Source: a phage. Taken from it: DNA of 64,000 bases. The notes below the pieces were generated by a model that was given only the letters and a program-made list of their open reading frames with translations, did no database searches and was not told where the DNA came from. The stretch is taken from sequence record NC_094493.1; one strand, written 5' to 3'. The translations under genes were made by a program, and so were the position numbers. Of the stretch, positions 58,949 through 63,042 are shown in pieces; the first letter of the stretch is position 1; each line of letters begins with the position of its first letter.

Positions 58949-59209
58949 TTACAGCACCTCTTCGTCAACTACTTCATAAAAATGGCCTGGGATTGCAATA
59001 GCGTTCTCACCTTCACCTACAAACACAGTTCCGTCAAGAATCAACATCATAAGAATTTCTGGAATATCCTCTTCCGGAACGTTGCCAAAACCTTTAATCA
59101 GCGTGTAGGTTGGAAGATTTACCTCTAAGATGCCACCATCTTTAGAGCGGAAATCAACACCATCCTGAATCTCTGCCATTTCAAGGTTTTTCAGTTTAAT
59201 CTTCATCAA
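58949..59209 (-). CDS. hypothetical acidic protein (86 aa)
   Basis: Begins MMKIKLKNL; directly downstream of a candidate minus-strand promoter. Confidence 0.55.
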   Translation of the reverse strand: MMKIKLKNLEMAEIQDGVDFRSKDGGILEVNLPTYTLIKGFGNVPEEDIPEILMMLILDGTVFVGEGENAIAIPGHFYEVVDEEVL

Positions 59210-59238
59210 TCAGTCTCCCGTCTTGTTAAGATGAAGGT

Positions 59239-59268
59239 ATTATTTCACACAGGGTTGGTGTTGTCAAC
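59239..59268 (-). promoter_or_regulatory. candidate sigma70 promoter (minus strand) with palindromic -35
   Basis: Minus-strand TTGACA, about 18-nt spacer, AATAAT; the -35 sits in the near-perfect palindrome GGTGTTG(T/A)CAACACC. Confidence 0.4.
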
Positions 59269-59285
59269 ACCTGTGTGCAAGAAAA

Positions 59286-59681
59286 TTACTGAAACAGTGC
59301 GGATAAATTACCTTCTGGTGGGAACTTATCTGCCAAAAACGGTGTTAGCACAGTAGCCTTCTGAAGATCTGGGGTCCACTCGTTGTTCAGAACATCCCAG
59401 TAGTACGCAATGTTGCTGTGTGGGTGCCGCATTACGAACTTTTTCCCTTCGTAGTCATCTGAAACCTCTACAGAAGAAATAACAACAGAATCTTCAAGGG
59501 TTTCTTCATAGAAAGATCCGCCTTCAAATTTCCAACGAGATGCAAGAGCCCCTGCCTTGAACGCTGCAGATAACGGACTGTCGGCAAGAACATACATTTC
59601 TTGCACTCTGCCGCTGCGATCTTTACTTCTTACGTTGTACACAGTATCTGAGCTATACTCAACACGGTATAGGCTTACCAT
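59286..59681 (-). CDS. hypothetical protein, paralogue of 61488..61886
   Basis: Shares FV..HP.S...YW......WTP....T.L with the 61488 gene. Confidence 0.6.
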   Translation of the reverse strand: MVSLYRVEYSSDTVYNVRSKDRSGRVQEMYVLADSPLSAAFKAGALASRWKFEGGSFYEETLEDSVVISSVEVSDDYEGKKFVMRHPHSNIAYYWDVLNNEWTPDLQKATVLTPFLADKFPPEGNLSALFQ

Positions 59682-60040
59682 TACCGCACCTCCTCAATAA
59701 CTTCCACATCTGAACCTACCACAAATGCAAAAGGACAGGTTTCATGAAAGACATCCGGATCGCCGCCAAGCTTGCTAACAATTTCTCCACCACTAATAAA
59801 CACAAGCTCACCGATATTCATCAGATTGCTGAAATAGTATCCATAATGATTGAAGAATGCAGCAGGGTCAGGTAGACTAGTAGCCTCAAGTTCTACATCT
59901 GTTGAGATTACTTTCTTATCATAACCTCTCGCCTTCTGAGATGCAAGATCCGCAGAATCTTCAGGCGACCGGAGATGCACAGGAATTGTTTCACCAATAA
60001 AGCGTACTTTCATATTATCACCCAACAACCATAGCTTCAA
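59681..60040 (-). CDS. hypothetical protein (119 aa)
   Basis: 1-nt overlap with downstream gene. Confidence 0.5.
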   Translation of the reverse strand: MKLWLLGDNMKVRFIGETIPVHLRSPEDSADLASQKARGYDKKVISTDVELEATSLPDPAAFFNHYGYYFSNLMNIGELVFISGGEIVSKLGGDPDVFHETCPFAFVVGSDVEVIEEVR

Positions 60041-60281
60041 AAGGGGTCATGAACGAATAAACGGCATCATCATCTGCTTCAGGGAATGCTCCCAAAGACT
60101 TCATGTCTGAGCCCTTGACAAATACAAGGTTTTGATCAAAAGCTTCTTGGGGATCAATCCGATACATATTTCGTAGAATGTCGCTTACCTCCTCATCAAG
60201 AGGTGAGTATGCTGTGCACGTTTTTCCGATCAAGCTTTGAGAATCAGGGTATCCACCTGAAGTTTTAAAATAAACAATCAT
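60018..60281 (-). CDS. hypothetical protein (87 aa)
   Basis: Co-oriented ORF overlapping downstream gene by 23 nt; start approximate. Confidence 0.45.
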   Translation of the reverse strand: MIVYFKTSGGYPDSQSLIGKTCTAYSPLDEEVSDILRNMYRIDPQEAFDQNLVFVKGSDMKSLGAFPEADDDAVYSFMTPFEAMVVG

Positions 60282-60372
60282 ATAGTATCACCTCTGGTAA
60301 GAGATTGGGATTCCTTTCCCACAAATAATTACAAATCTTCCTTATCGAGGAAGTATGCTAATCCAAGCAGGA

Positions 60373-60642
60373 TTATTCCTCTACAATCTCATACACATCA
60401 GGAGTTACAATCAACTCTTCTCCGTTACCCGGTGCAACAAACACCACCAAACCTTCAGGTGTGTGCTTTTTAGCCATCTCGATAACATCTTCGCGCAGAG
60501 CTGGCTCCATCAGATCAAAACCTTCACCCAGGGCATCACTAACCACCTTCATATAGTCCACTGGTTGTGCTTCAACAATCATGCCTTCAACCAGTCCACA
60601 GTTTTTGTCTGCCAGCTCAGTTTTGAATAATTTAATTTTCAT
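60373..60642 (-). CDS. hypothetical acidic protein (89 aa)
   Basis: Begins MKIKLFK; ends ...DVYEIVEE. Confidence 0.55.
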   Translation of the reverse strand: MKIKLFKTELADKNCGLVEGMIVEAQPVDYMKVVSDALGEGFDLMEPALREDVIEMAKKHTPEGLVVFVAPGNGEELIVTPDVYEIVEE

Positions 60643-60779
60643 TTAGAGGTCTCCTCAATTATTTGATATTAATAGCCGTAACCTAACACATTAACTACAA
60701 TTGCGATTGCAAACATAATTTCAAAGCATGCAATCTCTACATTTGGGACTAATTTCTTAATCACACCCATTGTAGCACC

Positions 60780-61097
60780 TCATTCTCCAAAGTCAATCTT
60801 TACTTTGCCTTTCCCCTTACCTTTCTTTCCACCACATTTAGCCAGCTGACGTGCTGCAACATCTACCATACGGTCAGTTGCCTCGTAAGCATCACTGCCT
60901 TTAGCTTTGGCAATAACTTCTTTTCCAGAATTGTCAAAAATGAACGCCATAACTTCCTGGTGATCATTTTCAACTTTTACACTCACACGTGCATAGTTGG
61001 CAGAGGGGTGCAAACGCTCCAGCTTAGACATTTTGTGGGAAATGAAAGACACCATACCTTCAGTGATTTCTACGTTGCCAGTGATTTCAATTTGCAT
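60780..61097 (-). CDS. hpf: ribosome hibernation promoting factor / RaiA-family protein
   Basis: MQIEITGNVEITEGM...KLE...VKVEN...KGSDAYEATDRMVDVAARQLAK lines up with E. coli HPF (MQLNITGNNVEITEAL...KLE...LKVEK...EGQDMYAAIDGLIDKLARQLTK, from memory); ATG confirmed with AGGAA RBS; Lys/Gly-rich tail. Confidence 0.8.
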   Translation of the reverse strand: MQIEITGNVEITEGMVSFISHKMSKLERLHPSANYARVSVKVENDHQEVMAFIFDNSGKEVIAKAKGSDAYEATDRMVDVAARQLAKCGGKKGKGKGKVKIDFGE

Positions 61098-61105
61098 AAC
61101 GTGTT

Positions 61106-61136
61106 CCTTTTAAAGAAGAGGGAACCAAACCCTCTT
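61106..61136 (-). terminator. hairpin (possible terminator/attenuator) upstream of hpf
   Basis: AGAGGGtttggttCCCTCT followed by TCTTTAAAAGG on the minus strand; the T-run overlaps the hpf RBS, so it may be a 5'-UTR structure. Confidence 0.4.
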
Positions 61137-61179
61137 TGAAAACAATGATACTAAATCTGAAGCGTTGTGTCAACAGTTT

Positions 61180-61470
61180 TTACAGATTGTTGTCGATAGT
61201 ATTTAAAATATCTACAGCAAGATCTGCCATTTTTCGAACATACTCTGCAAACTCAACAGGATCCTTGATCAAAGAATTTACAGGGTCGTACCCTAGAGCG
61301 TTCAAAATGGCTGCAGCATCTACAACCTTTTCATCATTTGCAAAGATCTCTCCGTCAAACTTATAGGTCCATTTTGAGTCAATCTTGGCAGGGCATGGCT
61401 GGTCCATGCTTGTTACACCATCGTCTTTAACCTCTCCTGCGTTATCAATATTCAGAACTAAATCCATCAT
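61180..61470 (-). CDS. hypothetical acidic protein (96 aa)
   Basis: Co-oriented ORF. Confidence 0.55.
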   Translation of the reverse strand: MMDLVLNIDNAGEVKDDGVTSMDQPCPAKIDSKWTYKFDGEIFANDEKVVDAAAILNALGYDPVNSLIKDPVEFAEYVRKMADLAVDILNTIDNNL

Positions 61471-61487
61471 AGTGGCACCTCACTGTT

Positions 61488-61886
61488 TCAGTTTAGCTTT
61501 TCTTCAACAACCCCATAGCTTGGGACAGAATCAAGAGCTTTCTGGTTTAAAAGTGGTGTAGCAGAATCTGCAAACGGTGTCCAAGTTTTTGTTCTGGAAT
61601 TCCAGTAATGCTTCACTCTGGAATCTGGATGCACTATAACAAAAACTTTTTCACTTGTCAACACATTAATTTCTTCTACACCCTTGCTGATAATTTCTCC
61701 GTCATAGCCCCCAGTCTGGTATCCTTCGTACCAGGTTCTTGCATAGGCATAGCCAGCCTGCCAGCATGCAGCCTCCTCCGAGGTGGAGACTACGTAGAAG
61801 TCCTTCTCAAATTCCGGAATACGCCCTTGCTTTACGCTCCAAGCTCCGCGAATTTTCATTGTAACTTTGAACAGTTTATTTTTCAC
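61488..61886 (-). CDS. hypothetical protein, paralogue of 59286..59681
   Basis: FVIVHPDSRVKHYWNSRTKTWTPFADSATPLL versus FVMRHPHSNIAYYWDVLNNEWTPDLQKATVLTP. Confidence 0.6.
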   Translation of the reverse strand: MKNKLFKVTMKIRGAWSVKQGRIPEFEKDFYVVSTSEEAACWQAGYAYARTWYEGYQTGGYDGEIISKGVEEINVLTSEKVFVIVHPDSRVKHYWNSRTKTWTPFADSATPLLNQKALDSVPSYGVVEEKLN

Positions 61887-61898
61887 AACGGTTACCCA

Positions 61899-62153
61899 TC
61901 ACAGCTCTACAATATCTGCATCTGACCCTACCCCAAAGGCATAATAGGACTCTTCCCCGAAATAATATTCAGGTGCACCAGCGGTGATCAGGTCTGATCC
62001 TAAGATAAACACCACGTTGTGGCCTACATAACTGTGATGTTGCCGCACAGGATCATCCCACGGCAACCCTTCAAAGTATACCGCAGGGACGACCTTTCCT
62101 TTCAGGAAGGATTGCCCCAAGTAGACGTTAGAATCAAGAATTTTAACCTTCAT
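61899..62153 (-). CDS. hypothetical protein, tandem paralogue (pair with 62143..62370)
   Basis: MKVKILDSNVYLGQ...GSDLITAGA...DADIVE versus MMKVKVLDSRFYIGQ...GADLIAAGA...DVEIVE. Confidence 0.6.
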   Translation of the reverse strand: MKVKILDSNVYLGQSFLKGKVVPAVYFEGLPWDDPVRQHHSYVGHNVVFILGSDLITAGAPEYYFGEESYYAFGVGSDADIVEL

Positions 62154-62370
62154 GATCGTCCTCCACTATCTCTACATCCTCACCTAGGGCAAAGTTGTAG
62201 GTCCACTGACTGTCAAAGCATTCCTGAGATGCACCAGCGGCAATAAGATCTGCCCCTTTTATTTTTAAAAGGTCAGGGTAATCTTCGTTAGGGACAGCAG
62301 TAAACACTTTCCCCACTAAAGGCTCCTGACCAATATAGAATCTTGAATCTAAAACTTTAACTTTCATCAA
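62143..62370 (-). CDS. hypothetical protein, tandem paralogue
   Basis: See 61899..62153; 11-nt overlap between the pair. Confidence 0.6.
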   Translation of the reverse strand: MMKVKVLDSRFYIGQEPLVGKVFTAVPNEDYPDLLKIKGADLIAAGASQECFDSQWTYNFALGEDVEIVEDDHEG

Positions 62371-62654
62371 CGGTCTCCATCAGGTGGTTGTGGGACGTAA
62401 ACACTGTTACGAATATCGTCCGCAGTATAGTAATAAGTGTCTCCAACCCTATCTCTGGCTGCAATGTACTCTGCTATACCAATAAGTGCCATTGATTTGG
62501 TGGCGTATCTTCCCCACTCGTTAGCTCCCCAGTAGAATTTAGACCAATAGGGAATAAGACCGAACAAATATACCTTTTGACGAACTTCCCAGTAAGTGCC
62601 TTTCCCGACAAGTTTAAACTCAACTTCACCACTGTTAATCTTTTTCATTATCAA
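62367..62654 (-). CDS. hypothetical protein (95 aa)
   Basis: 4-nt overlaps on both sides. Confidence 0.55.
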   Translation of the reverse strand: MIMKKINSGEVEFKLVGKGTYWEVRQKVYLFGLIPYWSKFYWGANEWGRYATKSMALIGIAEYIAARDRVGDTYYYTADDIRNSVYVPQPPDGDR

Positions 62655-62947
62655 TCTCCCTCTACCGTGGTCGGATTGTCAGTAAGAAATTGAGCATTAG
62701 CTGGAGGCACACCTGACATTTTCCACACGACCATAAGTTTGTAACCAGGCACTCTATTAAGCGCAGATCGAGTAGAGTTTGTGCACGTATACTTTCGCTT
62801 TCCAAACCCGTTCTCCATCATAATCCAGTACCCAGTATCTTTGTCACCAGGTATTGGTAGACCACCTTCATCAACCCACTGAATGGACCACGGCACGATG
62901 GCTACAGCTTTATATTTAAACTTTTTAAACCACTCAAAAAGTTTCAT
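62651..62947 (-). CDS. hypothetical protein (98 aa)
   Basis: 4-nt overlap with downstream gene. Confidence 0.55.
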   Translation of the reverse strand: MKLFEWFKKFKYKAVAIVPWSIQWVDEGGLPIPGDKDTGYWIMMENGFGKRKYTCTNSTRSALNRVPGYKLMVVWKMSGVPPANAQFLTDNPTTVEGD

Positions 62948-63042
62948 AATTCAGCCTCGCATAGACATAATCACTATAAACAGGCAAACAATGAATCCGA
63001 ATGCCACGCCACCCATAAACGTTAATATTGATGCAATCATAG

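What the first reader, a model, noticed from the sequence alone, without database searches (positions are those of the whole stretch)
60780..61097. Phage-encoded ribosome hibernation promoting factor (HPF/RaiA) homologue
The 105-aa product aligns along its whole length with bacterial HPF (MQ[LI].ITGN.VEITE, KLE, VKVE, ARQL[AT]K). HPF and RaiA bind the 30S subunit and silence ribosomes. A phage copy inside a block of small host-takeover-type genes suggests the phage manipulates host ribosome hibernation, either stabilising ribosomes in starved hosts or restricting translation to its own mRNAs. The Lys/Gly-rich C-terminal tail (KGKGKGKVK) is not typical of the short E. coli HPF.
Basis: partly seen in the sequence, partly recalled or inferred. 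Interest (0 to 1): 0.8.

Follow-up and report, generated by a model that had tools for sequence, protein, structure and literature searches.

The report
Known phage copy of ribosome hibernation factor
This is the already published ribosome-hibernation-factor (HPF) gene of rV5-like coliphages: the homology is real and the gene is under strong selection, but what it does to the host ribosome has still not been shown.

Summary
Window 60780..61097 (minus strand) encodes a 105-aa protein. It passes the curated cut-offs of Pfam Ribosomal_S30AE (48.3 vs 23.7 bits) and TIGR00741 (45.9 vs 40.9). Its predicted fold is beta-alpha-beta-beta-beta-alpha and superposes on V. cholerae and E. coli HPF at 1.0-1.1 A.

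The finding is not new. The window is an rV5-like Vequintavirus, and the protein is 100% identical to rV5 ORF144 (ABI79209), which is labelled 'sigma 54 modulation factor' in the rV5 GenBank record DQ832317. Mizuno et al. 2019 (PMC6375957) described it as a phage HPF and expressed it in E. coli. They found no peptides in ribosomes washed with 500 mM NH4Cl and no change in 100S dimers.

What I add:
- The gene is closer to short HPF (43% identity) than to RaiA (25%).
- It has a conserved near-consensus sigma-70 promoter.
- It is under strong purifying selection (dN/dS 0.03-0.17).
- The phage lineage is isolated, with a partly remodelled ribosome-contact surface (K80 to V/T, R17 to V).
- It has a disordered basic tail of RaiA-like length whose sequence is labile.

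The most likely reading is a salt-labile binder of the 30S decoding channel that modulates host hibernation. The direction of that effect is unknown.

The parts
60780..61097 (-). hpf-like gene, 105 aa. Residues 1-89 form the HPF core (beta-alpha-beta-beta-beta-alpha); residues 90-105 form a disordered Lys/Gly-rich tail.
   Evidence: ORF list; Pfam, NCBIfam and PDB hits; AF2 model with pLDDT 82.8 and tail pLDDT <50; Foldseek match to 4hei and 6h4n_x; 100% identical to rV5 ABI79209.
60780..60830 (-). Coding region for the C-terminal tail GGKKGKGKGKVKIDFGE plus the stop codon. It is a low-complexity A/G-rich repeat that varies between phages.
   Evidence: Tail variants are DFWD (FV3), DFRE (nom), truncated KGKGKAK* (Murica) and KYSKSKGIDKRTAKWDY (P0004). 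Tail dN is 0.72 against 0.26 for the core, versus the 64% orthologue.
61145..61173 (-). Sigma-70-type promoter TTGACA-17-TATCAT (11 of 12 consensus positions). It corresponds to the promoter annotated as P144 in rV5.
   Evidence: Promoter scan; rV5 annotation; conserved in all 8 Vequintavirus copies examined; the extended pattern is unique in the window, with 0 expected.
61098..61140 (-). Putative 5' UTR, assuming transcription from P144, with a 7-bp hairpin (AAGAGGG/CCCTCTT) and the RBS AAAGGAA. The hairpin is not statistically supported.
   Evidence: Sequence; fold -9.9 kcal/mol, z = -0.43 against shuffles.
60669..60770 (-). Downstream 33-aa hydrophobic ORF (phrog_15151), probably co-transcribed. 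Function unknown.
   Evidence: ORF list; PHROG hit; annotated in rV5 as ORF145.

Best explanation
The gene encodes a genuine member of the HPF/RaiA (Ribosomal_S30AE) family. It derives from a gammaproteobacterial short HPF and is fixed in rV5-like Vequintavirus phages. It is probably transcribed by host RNA polymerase from its own near-consensus sigma-70 promoter, most likely early in infection. The most likely mechanism is that the folded core (residues 1-89) docks in the tRNA/mRNA channel between the head and body of the 30S subunit of vacant host ribosomes, as HPF and RaiA do, using the retained contacts K23, K26, R83 and K87 (E. coli numbering). The disordered basic tail probably adds non-specific rRNA contacts and, being RaiA-like in length, may reach towards the RMF site. 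The net effect would be to hold host ribosomes as protected 70S monomers that are readily re-activated, rather than as RMF/HPF 100S dimers. This would benefit a phage infecting slow-growing or stationary cells. Shown here: homology, fold, purifying selection, promoter conservation. Inferred: ribosome binding, tail function, direction of the effect.
For: Family membership:
- Pfam PF02482 scores 48.3 bits against a gathering score of 23.7, and TIGR00741 is above its cut-off.
- The AF2 topology is E2-7, H13-29, E33-42, E47-55, E60-67, H70-92.
- 36 Foldseek PDB hits with E<1e-3 are all HPF, RaiA or pY. The best are 4hei (TM 0.93, rmsd 1.0 A) and E. coli HPF on the 100S ribosome, 6h4n_x.

HPF rather than RaiA lineage:
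- Identity is 43% to E. coli HPF against 25% to YfiA.
- PRK10470 scores 55.8 bits against 17.6 for PRK10324.

Functional maintenance:
- dN/dS is 0.03-0.17 across 7 Vequintavirus copies.
- The gene is present in 117 phage-labelled records.
- A 64%-identical orthologue lies in a similar block of small same-strand genes on uncultured 125-137 kb phage contigs.

Expression:
- The TTGACA-17-TATCAT promoter is conserved in all copies and annotated in rV5.

Contacts and tail:
- The retained residues K26, R83 and K87 match contacts described in bioRxiv 10.1101/2025.10.07.680626.
- The RaiA tail is reported to head towards, and block, the RMF site.
- The phage tail carries net charge +4 and is disordered.
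Against: - Mizuno et al. 2019 expressed this exact protein in E. coli. They found its peptides in the lysate but not in 70S or 100S fractions, and saw no change in 100S.
- That preparation used a 500 mM NH4Cl cushion and cells at the end of exponential phase. The authors themselves list salt dissociation and growth phase as possible causes, so the negative result is weak but real.
- Several contact residues are changed. K80 is K in 118 of 118 enterobacterial HPF/RaiA and in 16 of 19 diverse family members, but is V/T in the phage lineage. R17 becomes V, K89 becomes G/S, and T53 and H55 become F.
- The tail sequence is labile and is truncated in Murica and APECc02, so a sequence-specific tail function is unlikely.
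- Early timing is inferred only from the promoter type. I found no transcriptome data.
Confidence: 0.55

Rival explanations
1. Classical HPF activity. The phage protein acts like host short HPF, cooperating with RMF to convert 90S into 100S dimers. It would thereby shut down translation on vacant ribosomes, or protect ribosomes from nucleases, during infection.
For: It is closest in sequence and structure to short HPF, including E. coli HPF in the 100S ribosome. Its core charge is like that of the E. coli HPF core.
Against: Expression did not increase 100S. The protein carries about 10 extra residues after alpha2, the feature that in RaiA is linked to exclusion of RMF. H55 and T53, invariant or nearly so in enterobacterial HPF, are replaced. 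A lytic phage gains little from silencing the ribosomes it needs.
Confidence: 0.15
2. Dominant-negative anti-hibernation factor. A weakened binder competes with host HPF and RaiA for the same site but dissociates easily. This would prevent or reverse hibernation so that phage mRNAs are translated in starved cells. Mizuno et al. proposed this idea.
For: The loss of K80, R17 and K89 predicts lower affinity. The protein was absent from salt-washed ribosomes. Strong purifying selection shows it still does something. The proposal appears in PMC6375957.
Against: New basic residues (R28, K59, K64, K66, R76) and a +4 tail may compensate for the lost contacts, so lower affinity is not demonstrated. No data exist on infection of stationary-phase hosts. 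This rival overlaps with the best explanation, because both need 30S binding.
Confidence: 0.2
3. Neofunctionalised fold. The protein no longer binds ribosomes and uses the dsRBD-like beta-alpha-beta-beta-beta-alpha fold to bind another RNA or protein, either a phage or host transcript or a defence component.
For: No ribosome association was detected. The contact surface is remodelled. The phage lineage forms one isolated 50%-identity cluster, with the best bacterial hit at only 45% identity. Weak structural similarity to dsRBDs and to T7 Gp1.2 appears below the HPF hits.
Against: The most conserved contacts, R83 and K87, along with K23 and K26, are retained in both divergent phage orthologues. 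K80 is also non-basic in 3 of 19 diverse family members, taken from an unannotated library, whose function is untested. The negative experiment used salt conditions that the authors themselves say may have dissociated the protein.
Confidence: 0.1

Closest known systems
rV5 ORF144 / ABI79209, the 'phage HPF' of Mizuno et al. 2019 (Nat Commun 10:752, PMC6375957)
   Same: 100% identical protein with the same genomic position, promoter and neighbours. It is the same entity.
   Different: Nothing differs at the protein level. The window comes from a close relative of rV5: 99.0% nucleotide identity to phage I29 and 98.3% to rV5.
E. coli short HPF (YhbH; PDB 2rql, 6h4n chain x)
   Same: 43% identity over residues 1-89, the same fold (rmsd 1.1-1.4 A), and retained K23, K26, R83, Q84 and K87.
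   Different: Differences are 105 vs 95 aa; a Lys/Gly tail in place of KDKLKQH; K80V, R17V, H55F, T53F, H62I, M70A and K89G; and a one-residue deletion in the beta1-alpha1 loop, which is not present in all genus members. It scores 55.8 bits against the 125-bit equivalog cut-off of PRK10470.
E. coli RaiA / YfiA / protein Y (PDB 1n3g, 4v8i)
   Same: The same fold. An extension beyond alpha2 that begins basic and ends with acidic/aromatic residues (phage VKIDFGE vs RaiA VKDANFVEE). Total length is intermediate, at 105 vs 113 aa.
   Different: Only 25% identity, and PRK10324 scores 17.6 bits against a cut-off of 158. The phage tail lacks the long acidic end. The tail resemblance is a short motif that may be chance.
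HPF homologues of jumbo phages (Cronobacter phage GAP32 K4F6Q6, Escherichia phage PBECO4 L7TII8, Xanthomonas phage XaC1)
   Same: Phage-encoded S30AE-fold proteins of about 110 aa.
   Different: Only 18-23% identity to the rV5-type protein. Mizuno et al. place GAP32 elsewhere in the tree, which points to independent acquisitions.

Membership tests
HPF/RaiA family (Pfam PF02482 Ribosomal_S30AE; TIGR00741) | Profile score above the curated cut-off | tested here: met
   PF02482 scores 48.3 bits against 23.7, covering profile positions 1-83 of 88. TIGR00741 scores 45.9 against 40.9.
HPF/RaiA family (Pfam PF02482 Ribosomal_S30AE; TIGR00741) | beta-alpha-beta-beta-beta-alpha fold with two helices packed on one face of a four-stranded sheet | tested here: met
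   The AF2 model (pLDDT 82.8) has elements E2-7, H13-29, E33-42, E47-55, E60-67, H70-92. TM is 0.93 and rmsd 1.0 A to V. cholerae HPF 4hei.
HPF/RaiA family (Pfam PF02482 Ribosomal_S30AE; TIGR00741) | Conserved basic residues of helix alpha2 that contact 16S rRNA (K80, R83, K87, K91 in E. coli numbering) | tested here: inconclusive
   R83 and K87 are retained, and K91 in the window's protein (S in P0004). K80 is replaced by V, or by T in the 64% orthologue. K80 is also non-basic in 3 of 19 diverse family members.
HPF/RaiA family (Pfam PF02482 Ribosomal_S30AE; TIGR00741) | Binding to the 30S decoding channel and inhibition of translation | not testable with these tools
   The only experiment is from PMC6375957: the protein was not detected in ribosomes washed with 500 mM NH4Cl.
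Short HPF (YhbH) equivalog, NCBIfam PRK10470 | Equivalog score of at least 125 bits; about 95 aa ending in KHKDKLKQH | tested here: not met
   It scores 55.8 bits, is 105 aa long and has a different C-terminus. It is HPF-derived but not an equivalog.
Short HPF (YhbH) equivalog, NCBIfam PRK10470 | Promotes maturation of RMF-dependent 90S into 100S dimers | not testable with these tools
   Published expression in E. coli showed no discernible effect on 100S. An hpf-deletion complementation has not been done.
RaiA (YfiA) equivalog, NCBIfam PRK10324 | Equivalog score of at least 158 bits | tested here: not met
   It scores 17.6 bits and has 22-28% identity to enterobacterial RaiA.
RaiA (YfiA) equivalog, NCBIfam PRK10324 | C-terminal tail beyond alpha2 that occludes the RMF site | tested here: inconclusive
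   A 13-16 residue disordered basic tail is present. Whether it reaches the RMF site cannot be modelled here.
Long HPF (Gram-positive type) | C-terminal dimerisation domain (about 180-190 aa in total) | tested here: not met
   The protein is 105 aa with no second domain.

The most novel reading that the evidence does not exclude
The rV5-type protein is not simply a copied HPF. It would be a re-engineered hibernation antagonist. Its remodelled contact surface (K80V, R17V, new lysines on beta4) and RaiA-like basic tail would let it occupy the HPF/RaiA site reversibly and exclude RMF. The phage could then keep or return ribosomes of starved E. coli to a translatable 70S state. That would be a dedicated viral counter to dormancy-based phage tolerance.
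Probability: 0.2. Interest if true: 0.6.

Novelty: already known. Interest (0 to 1): 0.22.

Why it matters
Ribosome hibernation is one way starved bacteria become poor hosts for phages. A virus-encoded hibernation factor could show how a lytic phage copes with dormant cells, which is relevant to phage therapy against stationary-phase or persister populations. The gene's existence and identity are already in the literature and in GenBank annotation. The only open question is mechanistic: does the protein bind the ribosome, and does it promote, mimic or oppose hibernation? The analysis here sharpens that question but does not answer it. It shows an HPF-derived core, a changed K80, a RaiA-length tail, strong purifying selection and an inconclusive earlier assay.

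Tried and rejected
- Word-indexed homology search with the single protein found only near-identical phage copies and one 64% orthologue. A mixed alignment was needed to recover bacterial HPF and RaiA.
One of them, P0122, is a repeat-driven artefact.
- The IMG/VR scan with degenerate patterns found only two near-identical loci and no new divergent phage HPFs.
- I considered the 5' UTR hairpin as a regulatory element. I rejected it because its folding energy is no better than shuffles (z = -0.43) and it is not supported by covariation among copies.
- I considered whether the downstream 89-aa ORF, labelled 'sigma 54 modulation factor' in some phages, is a second HPF. I rejected this because it has no Pfam hit.
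- Literature searches for newer functional or transcriptomic work on Vequintavirus HPF found nothing beyond the 2019 and 2020 papers.
- Polikanov 2012 could not be read.
- R17V, T53F and H55F at first looked like striking losses. Family-wide these positions are variable, so only K80 and the DAY-for-DMY change remain notable.

Full report
**Observation**

Window 60780..61097 on the minus strand is an ATG-initiated ORF of 105 aa. An AAAGGAA ribosome-binding site lies about 7 nt upstream. The C-terminal KKGKGKGKVKIDFGE is real.

**Family assignment**

- Pfam PF02482 (Ribosomal_S30AE) matches residues 3-88 with E=1.8e-12 and 48.3 bits, above the gathering score of 23.7.
- NCBIfam TIGR00741 (HPF/YfiA family) scores 45.9 bits, above its cut-off of 40.9.
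- The two enterobacterial equivalog models are both missed. PRK10470 (short HPF) scores 55.8 against 125, and PRK10324 (RaiA) scores 17.6 against 158.
- PHROGs places the protein in its own family of unknown function (phrog_12469, E=7.5e-71), with a weaker hit to the S30EA phrog_8990.
- Against PDB sequences the best hit is E. coli HPF 2rql, at E=5.4e-12.
- An AlphaFold2 model built on a 30-sequence alignment has mean pLDDT 82.8. Residues 90-105 have pLDDT <50.
- Foldseek against the PDB gives 36 hits with E<1e-3, all of them HPF, RaiA or protein Y. The top hits are V. cholerae HPF 4hei (TM 0.93, rmsd 1.0 A) and E. coli HPF in the 100S ribosome, 6h4n_x.

Family membership is therefore secure.

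**What genome this is, and prior knowledge**

A 4-kb stretch around the gene is 99.0% identical to Escherichia phage I29 and 98.3% identical to phage rV5. In total 120 records match, essentially all rV5-like Vequintavirus. The protein is 100% identical to rV5 ORF144, ABI79209. That ORF is annotated 'sigma 54 modulation factor' in DQ832317, with a predicted sigma-70 promoter, P144, upstream. Other records call it ribosome hibernation promoting factor, RaiA, or ribosome hibernation factor.

Mizuno et al. 2019 (PMC6375957) list ABI79209 among virus-encoded ribosomal proteins and place the coliphage HPFs among gammaproteobacterial sequences. They speculate that viral HPF may compete with cellular homologues to prevent ribosome dimerisation. 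They also tested the protein:

- It was expressed from pBAD24 in E. coli NM522, and cells were harvested at OD600 of 1.
- Its peptides were found in the crude extract but not in 70S or 100S fractions.
- The 100S peak did not change.
- Their ribosomes were pelleted through a 500 mM NH4Cl sucrose cushion.
- The authors themselves name salt dissociation, growth phase or genuine loss of binding as possible explanations.

Mathieu et al. 2020 (PMC6969025) again note hpf in rV5-like gut coliphages. My searches for later functional work found none. The finding is therefore already known, and its function remains open.

**Which kind of HPF**

The protein is 43% identical to E. coli HPF and 25% identical to YfiA. 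Against 120 enterobacterial homologues it is 39-45% identical to the 95-aa HPFs and 22-28% identical to RaiA. In an exhaustive phmmer scan of 1.84 billion representatives, the phage lineage forms a single isolated 50%-identity cluster, represented by P0004. The best bacterial hit is a gammaproteobacterial-type short HPF at 45% identity, with E=2.5e-7. The gene is thus an old, diverged acquisition from the short-HPF lineage. It is not a recent capture from the host.

**Distribution and selection**

- tblastn finds the gene in 118 records of the phage collection. One of these is a Salmonella genome carrying the bacterial hpf. The other 117, all rV5-like, are at 94% identity or more.
- Searching with E. 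coli HPF adds only Xanthomonas jumbo phage XaC1 and a few small contigs.
- A structural search of viral proteins adds the jumbo phages GAP32 and PBECO4, at 18-23% identity.
- A 64%-identical orthologue, P0004 (103 aa), lies in a similar block of small same-strand genes, with flanking ORFs of matching length (96 aa upstream, 89 aa downstream). It sits on uncultured phage contigs of 125-137 kb.
- Nei-Gojobori comparisons of the window's gene with seven Vequintavirus copies give dN/dS of 0.03-0.17. Against OX460980, for example, there are 25 synonymous and 6 non-synonymous differences.

The protein is under strong purifying selection, so it is functional.

**Expression signals**

A TTGACA-17-TATCAT promoter, matching 11 of 12 consensus positions, lies at 61173..61145 on the minus strand. 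It coincides with rV5 P144 and is conserved in all eight genus copies examined. The divergent orthologue also keeps the AAACTGTTGACAC box.

The extended upstream element AAAnTGTTGACA occurs five times in the window, against 0.5 expected. This fits transcription by host RNA polymerase, probably early, but I found no transcriptome data. A 7-bp hairpin in the putative 5' UTR is no more stable than shuffled sequence (z = -0.43).

The neighbours are small proteins of unknown function. They include paralogue families phrog_7379 (two copies) and phrog_5009 (three copies).

**Contact surface**

A 2025 preprint on hibernating Gram-negative ribosomes (10.1101/2025.10.07.680626) names K80, R83, K87 and K91 as the basic residues conserved between HPF and YfiA that touch 16S rRNA. 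It adds K89, K26/Q29, T53/H62 (contacting m2G966) and H55/E60 (contacting the uS9 C-terminus) for HPF.

In my alignment of 58 enterobacterial HPFs and 60 RaiAs, the phage lineage compares as follows:

| Status | Residues (E. coli numbering unless marked) |
|---|---|
| Retained | K23, K26, R83, K87; Q84 and K91 in the window's protein only (H and S in P0004) |
| Changed | K80 to V (T in P0004); R17 to V; K89 to G/S; T53 to F/R; H55 to F; M70 to A |
| Gained basic residues (phage numbering) | R28, K59, K64, K66; R76 (not in P0004) |

K80 is K in 118 of 118 of the enterobacterial sequences, and R17 is R in 116 of 118.

Among 19 diverse family representatives, K80 is K in 16 and T, Q or V in 3, while R17, T53 and H55 are variable. 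So only the K80 loss and the DAY-for-DMY change stand out family-wide. The core has net charge -2 (pI 5.9), like the E. coli HPF core, and the tail carries +4. The interface is remodelled rather than destroyed. This is compatible with weaker or more salt-sensitive binding but does not demonstrate it.

**The tail**

Relative to E. coli HPF the protein has about 10 extra residues. They are predicted to be disordered.

Within the genus the tail ends vary:

- ...VKIDFGE in the window.
- ...DFWD in FV3.
- ...DFRE in nom.
- Truncated to KGKGKAK* in Murica, and not matched beyond residue 88 in APECc02.
- KYSKSKGIDKRTAKWDY in P0004.

Tail dN against the orthologue is 0.72, compared with 0.26 for the core. 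Basic character is therefore conserved but the sequence is not.

Basic extensions after alpha2, often followed by acidic residues, are common in the family, including in RaiA. In RaiA the tail is reported to run towards the RMF site and to prevent RMF binding and 100S formation. MAFFT aligns the phage KIDFGE with RaiA DANFVE, but this is too short to count as evidence.

**Mechanism**

The best-supported reading has four steps:

1. The core occupies the A/P-site channel of vacant 30S or 70S ribosomes, as all characterised family members do.
2. The tail adds electrostatic contacts and may overlap the RMF site.
3. The outcome is RaiA-like, giving 70S monomers rather than 100S dimers.
4. Binding is reversible and salt-labile.

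Step 1 follows from homology and from the retention of R83, K87 and K26. Steps 2 to 4 are inference.

The rivals are classical 100S-promoting HPF activity, a dominant-negative anti-hibernation role (Mizuno's proposal, which overlaps with my reading), and loss of ribosome binding with a new partner. The published negative result argues mildly for the last two. However, it was obtained under salt conditions that the authors themselves say may have dissociated the protein. From my own recollection, unchecked here, high-salt washing also strips the cellular hibernation factors from ribosomes.

**Verdict**

The functional suggestion is plausible but untested, and the only experiment so far did not support it. 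The finding is already known: it is annotated in the rV5 GenBank record DQ832317 and was published in 2019.

Modest new points from this work are the HPF-not-RaiA lineage, the isolated and remodelled phage clade, the strong purifying selection, the conserved promoter, and the labile basic tail of RaiA-like length.

Noticed in passing
window 59000-63000 (matches in GenBank MG0656xx records): Eighteen records named 'Campylobacter phage' (host C. jejuni) carry this locus at 97-100% identity to rV5-like coliphages. They are probably mislabelled or contaminating Vequintavirus genomes.
   Followed up: no
window 60373-60642 (-) and 60780-61097 (-): There are annotation errors in public records. The hpf ORF is called 'ATP-dependent protease La type I' in OR062525, OR062530, MT884009 and MT884011. 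The unrelated downstream 89-aa ORF is called 'sigma 54 modulation factor' in phages nom and nomo, whose notes cite an APECc02 protein, although it has no Pfam hit.
   Followed up: yes
window 59286-59681, 61488-61886; 60018-60281, 61899-62153, 62143-62370 (all -): The small-gene block around hpf contains paralogue families of unknown function. There are two copies of phrog_7379 (131-132 aa) and three of phrog_5009 (75-87 aa, one of them weak).
   Followed up: partly
window 30636(+), 42629(-), 51548(+), 53285(-), 61168(-): The extended -35 element AAAnTGTTGACA occurs five times, against 0.5 expected. This suggests a shared class of phage promoters read by host RNA polymerase.
   Followed up: partly
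L006, L007, L011 (phages nomo, V18, Murica), residue 8 of HPF: Some genus members keep the bacterial-type ITGNNVEIT (106 aa). The window's version has a one-codon deletion (ITGNVEIT). This is an in-frame indel polymorphism in the beta1-alpha1 loop, which contacts rRNA in bacterial HPF.
   Followed up: partly
window 60669-60770 (-): A 33-aa hydrophobic ORF (phrog_15151) lies 9 nt downstream of hpf and is conserved in every Vequintavirus copy examined. It may be a co-transcribed small membrane protein.
   Followed up: no
P0122 (library protein, not in the window): A 1160-aa tandem-repeat protein scored E=2.9e-9 against the phage HPF through eight repeated 47-residue stretches. It looks like a repeat-driven artefact rather than homology.
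   Followed up: partly
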